A stretch of DNA of 44,504 nt from a phage, in sequence record PZ386946.1; one strand, written 5' to 3'. The position numbers and the translations under genes are program-made. Below the pieces are notes generated by a model. That model had not been told where the DNA came from. It saw only the letters and a program-made list of their open reading frames with translations, and made no database searches. Shown in pieces: positions 31,465-37,164 of the stretch. Each line of letters begins with the position of its first letter. The stretch's first letter is position 1.

Positions 31465-32595
31465 ATGGCAACTGCAAAGATTACAAACGAAGAGCTTCGC
31501 GAAGAACTAGCTAATGGCATGACCAACAAGGCAATCGCAGAGAAGTACGGAATGAACATTCGCAACGTTGAATTGCGTCGTAGTAAATTGGCCAAGCAAG
31601 GTGAAGGACATGGTCGTGATGTTAGCAACCTAATTCCCCAAGGTTATGCAGTTAAGGGCGTATCTAGCTTAATTGGTGCTGATGGTGAGATTAAGCAGCA
31701 ATGGGTTAAATCCGATATCGACAAGGAGAAGCAAGAAGAGATGATGCTTCAGGCAATTCAGGCACTAAATGATGATTTGCCTCGCGAGAAACCAAAGCCG
31801 CTCAGCGTATCATCATTTGAGGACACCCTTAGCCTTTACCCTGTATTTGACCTTCACATTGGCGCAATGGCTCACCATGCTGAGTGCGGCGAGAACTATA
31901 GCACTGAAATCGCCGAGCGAGTTCTTAATAGTTATTTTGATTACGCCGTTGCAAAGGCACCAAACTCCAAGAAAGCTGTATTGCTGATTGGCGGTGACTT
32001 CCTTCACTCTGACGGAATGGAGGCGGTAACCCCAACCAGTCGTCATATTCTTGATCAGGATAGCCGTTATCACAAACTAGTTTACGTAGCAGTGAGAGCT
32101 ACCCGACGAGCAATTAGTCGTATGCTTGATAAGCACGCCGAGGTTGAGGTGCAGATTATCCCAGGAAACCACGATCTTTCAGGAATGATTTGGTTGCGTG
32201 CAGCAATGGCAGCTTTCTATATGGATGAGCCTCGGGTTAATGTTGATGCGTCCCCCGCCGCACTTCACGTAACGCAGTTCGGAAAGACGCTGCTTGGTTA
32301 CTGTCATGGACATGAACTCAAAAAGCCTGACACCAGACTATCAACACTAGCGCGAGATCATCGCAAGGCTTTTGGTGAATCGGAGTATGTTTACACACAT
32401 TCTGGCCATTACCACCATCAAACGATTACAGAGGGCAACCTAGGTATTGATGAGTCTCATGGTCAGCTTGGGGCGAAAGATGCGTACAGTGCTAACGGAG
32501 GATATCGATCTTACCGACAGGCTTCAGTAATTATCTACAGCCCGAAGTTTGGTGAGATTGGTCGATTCACTTGCCGACCTGAAATGTTTAGCTAA
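31465..32595 (+). CDS. calcineurin-like metallophosphoesterase with N-terminal HTH-like domain
   Basis: 376 aa; phosphoesterase motifs DLHIG, GGDFLHSDG, PGNHD, CHGHE, HSGHYHH; N-terminal about 50 aa HTH-like (MTNKAIAEKYGMNIRNVELRRSKL). Confidence 0.7.
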   Translation: MATAKITNEELREELANGMTNKAIAEKYGMNIRNVELRRSKLAKQGEGHGRDVSNLIPQGYAVKGVSSLIGADGEIKQQWVKSDIDKEKQEEMMLQAIQALNDDLPREKPKPLSVSSFEDTLSLYPVFDLHIGAMAHHAECGENYSTEIAERVLNSYFDYAVAKAPNSKKAVLLIGGDFLHSDGMEAVTPTSRHILDQDSRYHKLVYVAVRATRRAISRMLDKHAEVEVQIIPGNHDLSGMIWLRAAMAAFYMDEPRVNVDASPAALHVTQFGKTLLGYCHGHELKKPDTRLSTLARDHRKAFGESEYVYTHSGHYHHQTITEGNLGIDESHGQLGAKDAYSANGGYRSYRQASVIIYSPKFGEIGRFTCRPEMFS

Positions 32596-32668
32596 TAGCA
32601 CCTTTTGTTAATAAAGCCTCAAAGGATTGAGGCAAAATGAATAAACGATAAAGAGATGAGGAATTGTA

Positions 32669-33142
32669 ATGATTTACGTATTTGATATCGATGGAACTAT
32701 AGCTAATAATGAGCATAGAAGTCACCTCTTGCCATTAAGCGACCTTCACTTGACTTCAAGTTGGAAGGATTACAATAAAGCCTGTTCTGGAGACTCACCA
32801 ATAATTCCAATGATAAAAATGATGAATGCTTTAGCTGAGTCATCTCAAGTTTACATAATGACCTCAAGAAGTGATGAAGTTGAATGGAGAACCCTTGAGT
32901 GGCTTCAGGATAATGATGTTGAATATGATTCAATACGCATGAGAAGCAGACATGACAACCGAAAGGATTACTTAATTAAAGAGGAGTGGCTAAATAATCT
33001 TTGCGACGGAAAAAAGGAAGAGATAGTTATATTTGAAGATAACCCTCAGGTTATAAAACACTTAAGAAATTGTGGATATGCAGTTATGGCCGTATGTGAA
33101 TATGAAGAGCTACCTAAAGATTGCGAATCTCACGGAGAATGA
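32669..33142 (+). CDS. HAD-family phosphatase (T4 Pnk 3'-phosphatase-like / nucleotidase-like)
   Basis: 157 aa; N-terminal DxDGT motif (FDIDGTIA), further blocks (IMTSRSDE, RHDNRKDYLIKEE, IFEDNPQVI) recalled as similar to the T4 polynucleotide kinase phosphatase domain. Confidence 0.65.
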   Translation: MIYVFDIDGTIANNEHRSHLLPLSDLHLTSSWKDYNKACSGDSPIIPMIKMMNALAESSQVYIMTSRSDEVEWRTLEWLQDNDVEYDSIRMRSRHDNRKDYLIKEEWLNNLCDGKKEEIVIFEDNPQVIKHLRNCGYAVMAVCEYEELPKDCESHGE

Positions 33143-33144
33143 AA

Positions 33145-33699
33145 ATGACTAAATTATTTATCCTTAACGGCCCCGCTGGAGTTGGCAAGGACACTATAGC
33201 GGATATCATGGTTGAGACTGGTGTTGTTGATGGGAAAGTTTCATTCAAGTCACCAATGTTCGATGTAGCCAAGGGGATGCTATCAAAGGATGAATTTGAT
33301 TGGTTTATTGAGAACTACAACAACCGAGACGAGAAAGAAAAGAATCAAGAGATACTTGGCGGTAAAAGCATTCGAGAATTCATGATTTGGATTAGCGAGT
33401 CTGTAATGAAGCCAGTCTTTGGTGATTATGTTTTCGGTAAAAGGCTCGCCCAGTCACTTGGTGATGGTTGCTACATTTGCGCTGACGGTGGGTTTGCTAG
33501 CGAGATTAAGCCACTGATCGACACTGGTGTTGAGGTCACGTTAATCAGGTTGCATAGGGAAGGGTACACATTTTATGGCGATAGTCGCTCATACATTCAC
33601 GGGGTGTGTGCAAGAGAGATTGATGTTCATGTTGTTGATTGTGATATTAATGGAACATCATCATTGGTAAGGCACGTAATAAATAGCACGAATTGCTAA
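33145..33699 (+). CDS. P-loop nucleotide kinase (dNMP kinase-like), paralog 1
   Basis: ATG 33145 (track 33121 is TTG); Walker A LNGPAGVGKDT; overall block pattern recalled as resembling T4/T5 dNMP kinases; C-terminus reads through the motif (ends INSTNC). Confidence 0.65.
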   Translation: MTKLFILNGPAGVGKDTIADIMVETGVVDGKVSFKSPMFDVAKGMLSKDEFDWFIENYNNRDEKEKNQEILGGKSIREFMIWISESVMKPVFGDYVFGKRLAQSLGDGCYICADGGFASEIKPLIDTGVEVTLIRLHREGYTFYGDSRSYIHGVCAREIDVHVVDCDINGTSSLVRHVINSTNC

Positions 33700-33726
33700 A
33701 GATAATAGTAAAAACTGGGTTATCAT
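33682..33726 (+). promoter_or_regulatory. bipartite motif copy
   Basis: motif lies inside the 3' end of kinase paralog 1 coding frame; TATCATTAACACATCGAAACGA downstream. Confidence 0.45.
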
Positions 33727-33767: not shown

Positions 33768-33944
33768 ATGACTAAAATGATTTACTGCACAAAGAACAAC
33801 TCCAAGACGCTTCCATTTACAGTTAACCAGCCGTACAATGCAGAGTATCAGGGTGACGGATATTACAAGATTTACGGAGACGATATGACGTGGATTTTAG
33901 CACCGATTGATGGTTCGCTGGTTGAATTTATTATCGCAGACTAG
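33768..33944 (+). CDS. hypothetical small protein
   Basis: ATG 33768 (track start 33693 lies in motif); followed by strong terminator 33971..33998. Confidence 0.4.
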   Translation: MTKMIYCTKNNSKTLPFTVNQPYNAEYQGDGYYKIYGDDMTWILAPIDGSLVEFIIAD

Positions 33945-33970: not shown

Positions 33971-33998
33971 GGGGGGCCTTTTGGCTCCCCTTTTTTTT
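33971..33998 (+). terminator. rho-independent terminator
   Basis: hairpin GGGGGGCC-TTTT-GGCTCCCC followed by TTTTTTTT. Confidence 0.7.
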
Positions 33999-35580: not shown

Positions 35581-37164
35581 TCACCCCAATAGTCTTGGAT
35601 TAATGTAAACTTTATCACCAATCAGGCAAGTATAGTTTTTCTCATCAAGCATTGGCAGCAAGTGATCTTTAATCTTCGTCATTACTCCCGCTTGAGCCTC
35701 GAACGGCTTAACCTTTCGAGCCGCTTCATACAACGAACGAATGCCTACTACTCCTTTCCCGTTTTTGCCTTGCTTAATCAGAATGTCAATCAGCTTGTTC
35801 ATCTCGGCATTGTCTCCAGCGTGACCAGCCGCGTTGGCAGATGACAAATAAGTCTTGCTAAGTTCCTGGAACATAATTACAGCTTCCTGCATTGTATCAA
35901 GCTCAATTTCTCTCGACTTCTGAGGGCTACCGCCATTTGGGTTGAACCAGTTGCGCACAGTGTGAAGAACGGCCGCAATCCTGATTGCCTGCTTATCGAA
36001 CTTACCAAGCGCGCCGCGCAACATTGTGTGGGAATACTTACCGCCGTCCGCAAGGTGAGGTTCCATTTCCTGACGCGCGCGGTTGAGATATTTCATTGCT
36101 GAATTACTAACTGTCAACTTAACTTCTTGCTCATTCATTATCTCGTGAACTAAACGGAAGTAATCAGCCTTCAACCCGCCATCAATTGGTTCATAAGTCG
36201 ATTCGCCATTTTCATCAACGAATACACGCTCGCCCAGGAATGACTTTTCACGTACAAGCAGGAAACGCTCAGATACACCGATACCACGCGCGCCAGCGTT
36301 CATGATAGCGTTGATTGTCTCATCCTGTGCAATTACAGAGATGCAACCCATAGCAACGAAACTCATGTTGTTTTCTGCGTTCGCACGCGCGATAGATACG
36401 TTACCCGCATCCCATGCTTTAAGCACAAGCTCACTGTTCGTTTTCTTTGATCCGTCACCATAGGTCATGCCTAATAGTGAGTTAACGCTAGTTGCTTCGT
36501 CAGAAATTACCGCGAAGCTTCCCTGGCGGTTGTTTATTCGCGCAAGACCTTCAGGTGTGGTATCGGACACGGGGAAAACGATATCGCACAGCTTTTCCAG
36601 TTTTTCCTCTAGCTCTTCTTTTTCCTCGAAAAGAGAAGCCATCTCTGACGGAGATTTTTCCTGCTTCATCTCTTTGGATAACGCAGATAGTTTAGCCATG
36701 ATTTTCTTGCGCTCACGCTTTCGCACTTCATTCAGTCTCTCAGTCTCGGCAATCATTGGTGCAATTGAAAGTGAGTTAATGGCTGACTTACCAGTCGATG
36801 GAGGCTGACTTGTAACTACGTACAGAGACGTAGGCTGCTGAGTTCCATGATACTCAACTGTAAAGCGTCCCAGCATGGCAGCGGAAATACACCCCAGGAA
36901 GTGCATATAAGCTGAAGACTCAGGGAACTGAACCGAGCGAGCGATGTTAGATGAGAGTTTTCCGACAATATCAACATCATTGCCTAGTGAGATTACGGGA
37001 TACTTGTCATTAGCCGCATCAATCTCGACTGGCGCTTTCCAGAATGATTGAGACTGGCGATAGCCATTAGCATTGATAGCGACGCGCAGTGGTGGGAGGT
37101 TGTCTGCGGCAGCGATTGCCATAACCTGTTCAACAGATAGTTTATCTTCGTTGAAATCAAACAT
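35581..37164 (-). CDS. DUF3987-like P-loop NTPase with C-terminal wHTH-like domain (putative replication/recombination ATPase)
   Basis: 527 aa; Walker A-like VTSQPPSTGKSA, Walker B-like FAVISDEATS, central coiled-coil, C-terminal GKNGKGVVGIRSLYEAARKV; N- and C-terminal ends shared with ORF 39916..40461. Confidence 0.55.
   Translation of the reverse strand: MFDFNEDKLSVEQVMAIAAADNLPPLRVAINANGYRQSQSFWKAPVEIDAANDKYPVISLGNDVDIVGKLSSNIARSVQFPESSAYMHFLGCISAAMLGRFTVEYHGTQQPTSLYVVTSQPPSTGKSAINSLSIAPMIAETERLNEVRKRERKKIMAKLSALSKEMKQEKSPSEMASLFEEKEELEEKLEKLCDIVFPVSDTTPEGLARINNRQGSFAVISDEATSVNSLLGMTYGDGSKKTNSELVLKAWDAGNVSIARANAENNMSFVAMGCISVIAQDETINAIMNAGARGIGVSERFLLVREKSFLGERVFVDENGESTYEPIDGGLKADYFRLVHEIMNEQEVKLTVSNSAMKYLNRARQEMEPHLADGGKYSHTMLRGALGKFDKQAIRIAAVLHTVRNWFNPNGGSPQKSREIELDTMQEAVIMFQELSKTYLSSANAAGHAGDNAEMNKLIDILIKQGKNGKGVVGIRSLYEAARKVKPFEAQAGVMTKIKDHLLPMLDEKNYTCLIGDKVYINPRLLG

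What the first reader, a model, noticed from the sequence alone, without database searches (positions are those of the whole stretch)
31465..33699. Three-gene phospho-transfer cluster: HTH-metallophosphoesterase, PNK-type HAD phosphatase and P-loop kinase
Three consecutive genes encode a calcineurin-like metallophosphoesterase with an N-terminal HTH-like domain, a HAD phosphatase resembling the T4 polynucleotide kinase 3'-phosphatase domain (DxDGT), and a P-loop kinase (GVGKDT). Hypothesis A: a nucleic-acid end-healing set (5' kinase, 3' phosphatase, 2',3'-cyclic phosphodiesterase) that repairs tRNA or RNA cut by host anticodon nucleases. T4 Pnk with Rnl1 does this against PrrC. No ligase was recognised here, so a host ligase would be required. 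Hypothesis B: dNMP metabolism (dNMP kinase plus 5'-nucleotidase) for nucleotide salvage or a modified nucleotide. The fused HTH on a phosphoesterase is unusual in either case.
Basis: partly seen in the sequence, partly recalled or inferred. Interest (0 to 1): 0.7.

Follow-up and report, generated by a model that had tools for sequence, protein, structure and literature searches.

The report
Phage dNMP kinase, nucleotidase and nuclease cluster
Three neighbouring genes of a T1-like coliphage encode a DNA-binding Mre11-like phosphoesterase, a phosphatase of the phage T5 deoxynucleotidase family and a deoxynucleotide kinase; this looks like an ordinary, already noticed nucleotide-salvage module, not an RNA-repair kit.

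Summary
The window is a near-complete Drexlerviridae (Braunvirinae, Rtp-like) genome. At 31465-33699 it carries, in order, an HTH-fused calcineurin-type metallophosphoesterase (MPE), a DxDGT HAD phosphatase and a P-loop kinase.

The RNA end-healing reading (A) is not supported.
- It is 53% identical to the only phrog_139-type kinase found in phage KarlJaspers, whose DNK is reported to trigger the Kongming defence.
- The HAD belongs to phrog_415, the family of the characterised T5 5'-deoxynucleotidase Dmp. It is also clearly related to the T4 Pnk phosphatase domain.
- The genome has no ligase-sized unassigned ORF.

Reading B (dNMP metabolism) is therefore favoured.

The MPE has all five catalytic motifs with an Mre11-type GDxxH, and a LuxR/resolvase-type HTH. 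It is a widespread phage gene that often occurs alone. The trio is nevertheless contiguous in the same order in Kagunavirus and in Era103, and occurs with a different MPE family in ZPAH7. This parallels T5's A1 (metallophosphatase that degrades host DNA), A2, Dmp and Dnk.

No activity was tested here. The cluster is a new member of known kinds and of modest interest.

The parts
31465..32595 (+). HTH-fused calcineurin-type metallophosphoesterase (376 aa). Residues ~1-45 form a LuxR/resolvase-type HTH. Residues ~60-102 form a beta-hairpin plus helix linker. Residues ~119-376 form the MPE core with Mre11-like motifs.
32592..32611 (+). Degenerate copy (TAATAGCACCTTTTGTTAAT) of the 20-nt Drexlerviridae intergenic motif, at the MPE/HAD boundary.
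   Evidence: Read directly and compared with the motif. By my count there are 6 mismatches, with the core AATAGCAC..TTG.TAA kept.
32669..33142 (+). Standalone HAD phosphatase (157 aa) of the T5 Dmp / Pnk-phosphatase clade. Motif I D6xD8GT, R17, T65-S-R67, D96-N-R-K-D100, K104, E123-D124.
   Evidence: Pfam HAD_PNKP 1e-17. phrog_415 1.4e-49 against phrog_505 5.5e-24. T5 Dmp is in phrog_415 at 3.6e-57. PDB profile hits: Pnkp1 1.4e-15, T4 Pnk phosphatase 4e-10. hhalign: T4 Pnk 1.4e-12, T5 Dmp 8e-6.
33145..33699 (+). dNMP kinase (DNK) homologue, 184 aa, P-loop GPAGVGKDT with Lys15. The start is corrected from TTG 33121 to ATG 33145.
33681..33700 (+). Perfect copy of the 20-nt motif AAATAGCACGAATTGCTAAA. 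It forms the last codons and the stop of the kinase gene and marks the 3' boundary of the HAD-kinase cassette.
   Evidence: In JulesPiccard the HAD-kinase cassette lies between two motif copies.
33768..33944 (+). Small DUF7244 gene. In relatives without the cassette it directly follows the MPE gene.
   Evidence: Pfam DUF7244 3.8e-29. Synteny with SU57 and JulesPiccard.
33971..33990 (+). Intrinsic-terminator-like hairpin followed by a T-run. Probable end of the transcription unit, upstream of the lysis cassette.
40656..41270 (+). Second DNK paralogue (204 aa, 46% identical to the cluster kinase), at the position where relatives keep their HAD-kinase pair. No HAD precedes it here.
   Evidence: phrog_139 6.7e-40. 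BLASTP 3e-48. tblastn finds no second HAD in the window.

Best explanation
The cluster is a deoxynucleotide-metabolism module, not a nucleic-acid end-healing set.

- Kinase (inferred from close homologues). It is a broad dNMP kinase (DNK) that converts dNMPs to dNDPs. Host Ndk then makes dNTPs for phage DNA synthesis. This matters for a phage that has no polymerase or de novo nucleotide genes of its own.
- HAD (inferred from family membership). It is a Dmp-family Mg-dependent phosphomonoesterase with Asp6 as nucleophile. It acts on deoxynucleotides and trims or rebalances the dNMP pool that the kinase draws on.
- HAD and kinase together. They form a two-gene cassette that sits at different positions in different Drexlerviridae.
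- HTH-MPE (inferred from fold and motifs only). It is a Mn/Mg-dependent Mre11/SbcD-like DNA phosphodiesterase tethered to DNA by its HTH. The most economical role is breaking down DNA, probably host DNA, into the 5'-dNMPs that feed the other two enzymes.

The set would then be the T1-like counterpart of T5's A1 (metallophosphatase DNase), A2 (DNA binding), Dmp and Dnk.
For: Kinase
- Same PHROG as T4 gp1.
- hhalign against T4 Pnk aligns only the 24-residue P-loop segment.
- 53% identity to the only phrog_139-type kinase found in the KarlJaspers right arm. KarlJaspers DNK triggers Kongming. R1DNK phosphorylates dAMP, dGMP, dCMP and dTMP and needs Lys15 (10.1101/2024.12.20.629578).

HAD
- Best PHROG is 415, which holds T5 Dmp over its full length. 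T4 Pnk's own family is phrog_505.
- It shares the cap motif HR..P..D...N.A..D with T5 Dmp. T5 D22, the residue whose mutation abolishes activity, aligns to Asp6.
- A 44%-identical standalone copy follows nrdA-nrdB in a Krischvirus that already has pseT and RNA ligase 1.

Linkage
- 68 of 80 IMG/VR kinase loci have the HAD upstream on the same strand. 25 of 80 have MPE-HAD-kinase contiguous.
- The trio is contiguous in Era103 and in Kagunavirus K1ind2. In K1ind2 the start and stop codons overlap and the three genes form an island inside the tail module.
- ZPAH7 has a different MPE family in the same position, next to its exonuclease and endonuclease VII.
- The Kongming paper reports that Dmps occur mainly in DNK-carrying phages.

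MPE
- All catalytic motifs are invariant, including the Mre11-type GDxxH.

Other
- No ligase-sized unassigned ORF in the window.
Against: - No enzyme activity was measured here.
- A co-transcribed dNMP phosphatase and dNMP kinase with the same substrates would form a futile cycle. T5 avoids this by separating them in time.
- By hhalign the HAD profile matches the T4 Pnk phosphatase domain more strongly (Prob 97.7, E 1.4e-12) than T5 Dmp (Prob 83.7, E 8e-6). A 3'-phosphatase activity therefore cannot be excluded.
- The MPE occurs without the HAD or the kinase in many phages. Examples are Bas71 and RcSalem, and by the counts most Salmonella phages: 373 MPE records against 43 kinase records.
- In JulesPiccard and KarlJaspers the HAD-kinase pair lies about 8 to 10 kb from the MPE. 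The MPE may therefore have an unrelated job.
- The MPE profile shows no significant sequence similarity to T5 A1. T5 A1 could not be identified among the named viral fold matches, and many of those entries carry no name.
- Deleting dnk from phage Rao1 caused no measurable fitness cost.
Confidence: 0.62

Rival explanations
1. Nucleic-acid end healing. The HAD removes 3'-phosphate or 2',3'-cyclic phosphate, the kinase phosphorylates 5'-OH ends, and the MPE acts as a cyclic phosphodiesterase or nuclease. Together they repair RNA or DNA cut by host nucleases, and sealing is left to a host ligase.
For: - The HAD is a clear relative of the T4 Pnk and Pnkp1 phosphatase domains. It keeps the counterparts of T4 D165, D167, R176, R213, D254, K258 and D278. 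The residue list is from my memory of Shuman-lab mutagenesis; the alignment is.
- Era103 has a DNA ligase immediately downstream of the trio.
Against: - The kinase is gp1/DNK-like, not Pnk-like.
- Phage Aci05 has a separate Pnk-type kinase next to its RNA ligase as well as a DNK-type kinase. This shows the two kinase types are distinct.
- A Krischvirus has pseT and rnlA in addition to this standalone HAD.
- The window has no ligase-sized unassigned ORF.
- From my own knowledge: E. coli RtcB joins 3'-P or >P ends to 5'-OH ends, so healing the ends would remove its substrate.
- The Era103 ligase is annotated as similar to SP6 gp24, so it is probably part of the SP6-like backbone.
- The MPE has GDxxH and GNHD motifs, not the lambda-phosphatase/CthPnkp-type GDxxDRG and GNHE (motif definitions from my own knowledge).
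Confidence: 0.1
2. Counter-defence by pool editing. The HAD is kept next to the kinase to stop the kinase's products from being turned into immune signals. For example, it could remove dAMP or dIMP so that Kongming cannot make dITP, as T5 Dmp does. The MPE would be an unrelated neighbour.
For: - T5, VPG01 and Bas26 Dmps suppress DNK-triggered Kongming toxicity. Dmps occur mainly in DNK-carrying phages.
- The HAD is in the same PHROG as T5 Dmp.
- The HAD lies upstream of the kinase in 68 of 80 loci.
Against: - The paper states that DNK presence correlates with Kongming sensitivity, with T5-like phages the main exception. By implication, DNK-carrying Drexlerviridae, which usually also have this HAD, are not protected. 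I could not see the per-phage data (fig. S3).
- Co-expression lacks T5's temporal separation.
- The standalone HAD also sits after nrdAB in a Krischvirus, which is a metabolic context.
Confidence: 0.13
3. No functional unit. The three genes are independent and adjacent only because the HAD-kinase cassette was inserted next to a core gene at a recombination-prone intergenic motif. The MPE would work in phage replication or recombination, processing ends alongside the RecE-like exonuclease, Erf and SSB. It would not act in nucleotide supply.
For: - The cassette sits elsewhere in JulesPiccard and KarlJaspers.
- It is flanked by copies of the 20-nt motif in both arrangements.
- The MPE occurs alone in many phages.
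- The genome encodes RecE-like, Erf-like and SSB proteins.
Against: The same gene order recurs in three unrelated phage groups. In K1ind2 the coding regions overlap. In ZPAH7 a non-orthologous MPE takes the same place.
Confidence: 0.15

Closest known systems
Phage dNMP kinases (DNK): T4 gp1 (PDB 1DEK), T5 Dnk, Rao1 R1DNK, KarlJaspers DNK
   Same: - Same PHROG (139).
- Best structural match is 1DEK.
- GKD(T/S) P-loop with Lys15.
- 53% identity to the KarlJaspers kinase.
- Size about 180-240 aa.
   Different: - Only 18% identity to T4 gp1, and hhalign is significant only over the N-terminal 73 columns.
- The T4 motif PDTRQ is DGGF here, so base specificity may differ.
- This genome carries two paralogues that are 46% identical.
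T5 Dmp, deoxynucleoside-5'-monophosphatase
   Same: - Same PHROG (415).
- DxDGT with the nucleophile Asp equivalent to T5 D22.
- Shared cap motif.
- Co-occurs with a DNK.
   Different: - 157 aa against 244 aa, with 22% identity in the hhalign alignment.
- T5 Dmp is a pre-early gene expressed before Dnk. Here the two genes are adjacent and apparently co-transcribed.
- Motif IV is ED instead of DD in this lineage.
T4 polynucleotide kinase/phosphatase (PseT) and Pnkp1 phosphatase domains
   Same: HAD core and the signature motifs SGR/TSR, D-x-RKD-x-x-K and DD are conserved. Profile matches are 1e-8 to 1e-15.
   Different: - No fused Pnk-type kinase.
- The cap insert is about 10 residues longer.
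- No partner RNA ligase.
- PHROGs place T4 Pnk in family 505, not 415.
T5 pre-early set: A1 (predicted metallophosphatase, host DNA degradation), A2 (DNA-binding) and Dmp
   Same: The combination is the same: a metallophosphoesterase with Mre11- or polymerase-B-subunit-like structural relatives, a DNA-binding function, a Dmp-family HAD, and a DNK in the same genome.
   Different: - No significant sequence similarity between this MPE and A1.
- The HTH is fused here, not a separate protein.
- This phage has no two-step DNA injection.
Mre11/SbcD nucleases
   Different: - No Rad50/SbcC-like partner ORF.
- An N-terminal HTH is added.
- Residues 316-351 are modelled with pLDDT below 50.

Membership tests
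Phage dNMP kinase (DNK; T4 gp1 family) | P-loop GxxGxGKD(T/S) with catalytic Lys | tested here: met
   GPAGVGKDT with Lys15. G14, K15, D16 and T17 are invariant in 36 homologues. R1DNK K15A is inactive.
Phage dNMP kinase (DNK; T4 gp1 family) | gp1-type fold, not a generic NMP-kinase or Pnk fold | tested here: met
Phage dNMP kinase (DNK; T4 gp1 family) | Profile membership together with characterised members | tested here: met
   phrog_139 4.4e-42; T4 gp1 1.8e-65 in the same PHROG. 53% identity to the KarlJaspers kinase.
Phage dNMP kinase (DNK; T4 gp1 family) | ATP-dependent phosphorylation of dNMPs | not testable with these tools
   Requires an enzyme assay.
T5 Dmp-type 5'-deoxynucleotidase (phrog_415 HAD) | HAD motifs I-IV, with a nucleophile Asp equivalent to T5 D22 | tested here: met
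   D6xD8GT, T65, K104 and D124 are conserved. T5 D22 aligns to D6.
T5 Dmp-type 5'-deoxynucleotidase (phrog_415 HAD) | Profile membership together with T5 Dmp | tested here: met
   Window HAD scores 1.4e-49 and T5 Dmp 3.6e-57 against phrog_415. Direct hhalign: Prob 83.7, E 8e-6.
T5 Dmp-type 5'-deoxynucleotidase (phrog_415 HAD) | Hydrolysis of 5'-dNMPs to deoxynucleosides | not testable with these tools
   Requires an enzyme assay. A 3'-phosphatase activity is an open alternative.
T4 Pnk-type end-healing enzyme or system | PNKP-type HAD 3'-phosphatase domain | tested here: met
   Pfam HAD_PNKP 1e-17. hhalign to T4 Pnk residues 156-298: Prob 97.7, E 1.4e-12.
T4 Pnk-type end-healing enzyme or system | Pnk-type 5'-kinase domain | tested here: not met
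   Only the 24-residue P-loop segment aligns to T4 Pnk. The kinase matches phrog_139 and has no match to phrog_505 or phrog_2071.
T4 Pnk-type end-healing enzyme or system | Partner RNA ligase in the genome | tested here: not met
   Every ORF of 250 aa or more is assigned by PHROG or by synteny to structural, replication or MPE functions. This rests partly on synteny with annotated relatives.
Mre11/SbcD nuclease | Five calcineurin-type motifs with the motif II His (GDxxH) | tested here: met
   All are invariant in 27 sequences.
Mre11/SbcD nuclease | Rad50/SbcC ATPase partner | tested here: not met
   No SbcC-like ORF. The only large ATPases match DNA helicase PHROGs (phrog_16, phrog_2373).
Mre11/SbcD nuclease | DNA exo- or endonuclease activity | not testable with these tools
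   Requires an assay.
Lambda-phosphatase / CthPnkp-type end-healing phosphoesterase | Motifs GDxxDRG and GNHE (definition from my own knowledge) | tested here: not met

The most novel reading that the evidence does not exclude
The HTH-metallophosphoesterase, the Dmp-family HAD and the DNK form one portable unit for demolishing host DNA and channelling the nucleotides. The unit moves as a block between unrelated phage families (Drexlerviridae, Guernseyvirinae, Autographiviridae). The MPE is the long-unidentified host-DNA-degrading nuclease of T1-like phages. The HAD has a specialised substrate, such as 3'-phosphorylated or non-canonical dNMPs like dIMP or dUMP. That specialisation would avoid a futile cycle with the kinase and blunt nucleotide-based immune signalling.
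Probability: 0.2. Interest if true: 0.55.

Novelty: new member of a known kind. Interest (0 to 1): 0.3.

Why it matters
The main value is corrective. The standalone HAD is widely annotated as "polynucleotide kinase" in phage records and in PHROGs (phrog_415). That label invites an RNA-repair reading. In fact the HAD has no kinase domain and shares its family with the characterised T5 deoxynucleotidase.

Recognising the pair as Dmp plus DNK links T1-like phages to the current picture in which phage dNMP kinases both feed replication and trigger the Kongming defence.

The open question is the role of the HTH-fused Mre11-like phosphoesterase. It is present in about 2000 sequenced phages, and its recurrent association with the pair gives a testable hypothesis: that it degrades host DNA.

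Tried and rejected
- Sequence searches of the PDB. With the kinase alone or as a profile they found only P-loop matches. The MPE found nothing. Structure prediction was needed.
- hhalign of the MPE profile against T5 A1 and A2 was not significant. T5 A1 could not be identified in the BFVD fold search, where many entries lack names. The T5 parallel is an analogy, not shown homology.
- ORFs lying between the HAD and the kinase in loci where the two are separated are small hypothetical proteins. No enzyme signature was seen, but they were not run against any family library.
- I considered whether the 20-nt palindromic intergenic motif is the target of the MPE's HTH. The motif is absent from the Era103, Kagunavirus-type and Bas71 loci, which all carry the HTH-MPE, so I rejected this.
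- A literature search for T1 host-DNA-degradation genes found nothing. The NCBIfam hits were all far below their cut-offs.
Full report
**What the window is.** The region is 78-92% identical to Rtp-like coliphages of Drexlerviridae/Braunvirinae such as SU57, ACG-M12, vB_EcoS_FP and OzMSK. The left 25 kb is 86% covered at 87% identity by JulesPiccard (Bas03). The 44.5-kb window is therefore an almost complete T1-like genome. It encodes helicases, a primase, a RecE-like exonuclease, Erf and SSB, but no polymerase or ligase.

**Observation.** They appear to form one + strand transcription unit with the small DUF7244 gene. The unit ends at a strong terminator-like hairpin at 33971-33990, ahead of the holin. 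The kinase most likely starts at ATG 33145 and not at TTG 33121, judging from annotated homologues.

**The kinase.**
- Pfam and NCBIfam see only the P-loop. PHROGs place the protein in phrog_139, "deoxynucleoside monophosphate kinase" (4.4e-42).
- I confirmed that T4 gp1, whose sequence matches PDB 1DEK at every aligned position over 241 residues, is in the same PHROG (1.8e-65).
- Against T4 Pnk only the 24-residue P-loop segment aligns.
- The protein is 53% identical to bas06_0076 of phage KarlJaspers, a member of Drexlerviridae. Zeng et al. report that the KarlJaspers, T5 and Klebsiella VAC2 DNKs trigger the Kongming system. They also report that Rao1 R1DNK phosphorylates all four dNMPs and requires Lys15 (10.1101/2024.12.20.629578). 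The window protein has Lys15 in the same P-loop.
- That bas06_0076 is the DNK they tested is my inference. It is the only phrog_139-type gene I found in the annotated right arm.

**The HAD.**
- It passes Pfam HAD_PNKP (1e-17). A profile of 18 homologues hits only Pnkp1 and the T4 Pnk phosphatase among solved structures (1.4e-15 to 4.5e-8). hhalign against T4 Pnk gives Prob 97.7, E 1.4e-12.
- However, its best PHROG is 415 (1.4e-49), ahead of 505 (5.5e-24). T4 Pnk belongs to 505 (1.1e-125) and scores only 3e-24 against 415.
- T5 Dmp, the experimentally characterised 5'-dNMP phosphatase, matches 415 alone, over its full length (3.6e-57).
- Direct hhalign of the HAD profile to T5 Dmp gives Prob 83.7, E 8e-6 over 134 columns. 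T5 D22, whose mutation abolishes activity, aligns to Asp6. The cap-region motif HR..P..D...N.A..D is shared.
- The label "polynucleotide kinase" on phrog_415 is thus a misnomer: the members examined here have no kinase domain.
- Context points the same way. A Krischvirus that has its own pseT and RNA ligase 1 carries a 44%-identical standalone HAD overlapping the end of nrdB. Acinetobacter phage Aci05 has a Pnk-type kinase next to its RNA ligase as well as a separate DNK-type kinase.

**The metallophosphoesterase.**
- All five calcineurin-type motifs are invariant, with the Mre11-like GDxxH and GNHD.
- The model is moderate (pLDDT 70; residues 316-351 are poorly modelled).
- The protein is common. 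tblastn finds it in 2049 phage records across Drexlerviridae, Guernseyvirinae, Casjensviridae, Vibrio phages and others. It often occurs without the other two genes.

**Are the three genes linked?**
- Among 80 IMG/VR loci found with the kinase profile, 68 have the HAD upstream on the same strand. 25 have MPE-HAD-kinase contiguous, and 12 have the kinase alone.
- The contiguous trio also occurs in the podovirus Era103, where the MPE is 41% identical over its full length including the HTH.
- It occurs in Kagunavirus K1ind2 as a three-gene island with overlapping start and stop codons, on the opposite strand inside the tail module.
- Aeromonas phage ZPAH7 has a different MPE family (phrog_221) in the same position, next to its exonuclease and endonuclease VII.
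- In contrast, JulesPiccard and KarlJaspers keep the HAD-kinase pair in the right arm, about 8 to 10 kb from the MPE.
- In this window the pair lies between a degenerate and a perfect copy of a 20-nt Drexlerviridae intergenic motif. In JulesPiccard the pair is likewise flanked by motif copies. The HAD-kinase pair therefore behaves as a relocatable cassette.
- This genome also retains a second kinase paralogue at the ancestral right-arm site.
- A 2026 paper had already noted that "polynucleotide kinase" and dNMP kinase genes commonly follow the "DNA repair exonuclease" in Drexlerviridae. It suggested a nucleotide-supply role (PMC13164509).

**Mechanism.** The best-supported reading is nucleotide metabolism. 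The DNK recycles dNMPs into dNDPs. The Dmp-family HAD acts on the same pool. The MPE, if it is a DNase, would generate that pool.

This parallels T5. There A1 is a predicted metallophosphatase with structural relatives among double-strand-break-repair nucleases and polymerase proofreading subunits, and it is necessary and sufficient for host DNA degradation. It is encoded beside the DNA-binding protein A2 and Dmp (10.64898/2026.04.02.716235).

What is shown: family and fold assignments, and synteny. What is inferred: all substrate assignments, the DNase role of the MPE, and the functional coupling.

The main difficulties are three. A co-expressed phosphatase and kinase would form a futile cycle. 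The HAD is strongly similar to the Pnk phosphatase domain. And the MPE is frequently independent of the other two genes.

**RNA repair.** This reading is disfavoured by the kinase type, by the absence of any ligase, and by the coexistence of this HAD type with a genuine Pnk-ligase set in a Krischvirus, and of this kinase type with one in Aci05.

**Verdict.** Interpretation B is supported and A is not. The components belong to known, partly characterised families, and the cluster has been noticed before. Novelty is low to moderate, and the untested role of the HTH-MPE is the one open question.

Noticed in passing
window 1561, 20108(-), 21947, 25786, 29819, 30105, 33681, 37656(-), 40456, 41269, 42093; degenerate copy at 32592: A 20-nt motif AAATAGCACGAATTGCTAAA (inverted repeat TAGCA-N5-TGCTA) occurs 11 times, where none is expected by chance. 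The copies I checked against the ORF list sit at or next to gene ends, and most point in the direction of transcription. It is also abundant in other Drexlerviridae loci, often just after the kinase gene, and it flanks the HAD-kinase cassette in JulesPiccard. It is absent from the Era103, Kagunavirus-type and Bas71 loci. It could be an operator, an RNA-processing site or a module-boundary element.
   Followed up: partly
window 40656-41270 (+): A second dNMP-kinase paralogue (204 aa, 46% identical to the cluster kinase, phrog_139 6.7e-40) with no HAD upstream. Two DNK copies in one 44.5-kb genome suggests that the cassette by the MPE was a secondary acquisition, or that the two copies differ in substrate specificity.
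   Followed up: partly
window 33121-33147: The mechanical ORF for the kinase starts at TTG 33121 and overlaps the HAD gene. Annotated homologues start at the ATG equivalent to 33145, two bases after the HAD stop codon (TGA, 33140-33142).
   Followed up: yes
phrog_415; L091 124-858 (T5 dmp): PHROG 415, labelled 'polynucleotide kinase' and copied into many GenBank phage records, contains T5 Dmp and standalone HAD phosphatases with no kinase domain. The label is misleading.
   Followed up: yes
L088 4001-4477 (Krischvirus GoldenSnicker): A standalone HAD 44% identical to the window's overlaps the end of nrdB by 4 nt. The same genome also has pseT and RNA ligase 1 a few kb away.
   Followed up: partly
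L005 4001-5131 (Bas71); L094 1865-4031 (K1ind2): In Guernseyvirinae-type genomes the MPE lies on the opposite strand as an island inside the tail-gene module. In Bas71 it is the MPE alone. In Kagunavirus K1ind2 it is the MPE-HAD-kinase trio.
   Followed up: partly
window 39916-40461 (+) and 35581-37164 (-): The 181-aa ORF (phrog_7327) shares a segment with the C-terminal part of the 527-aa T1 gp09-like ATPase/helicase. Each protein hits the other's PHROG. This looks like a partial duplication.
   Followed up: no
window 43593-43670 (+): A single tRNA-Arg(UCU) gene, as in JulesPiccard.
   Followed up: no
window 33674-33699; alignment A2 C-termini: Several kinase homologues end in (N/D)STNC. In the window this tail is encoded by the 20-nt intergenic motif, which has been read into the ORF. 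In the second paralogue the motif lies just after the stop codon.
   Followed up: partly
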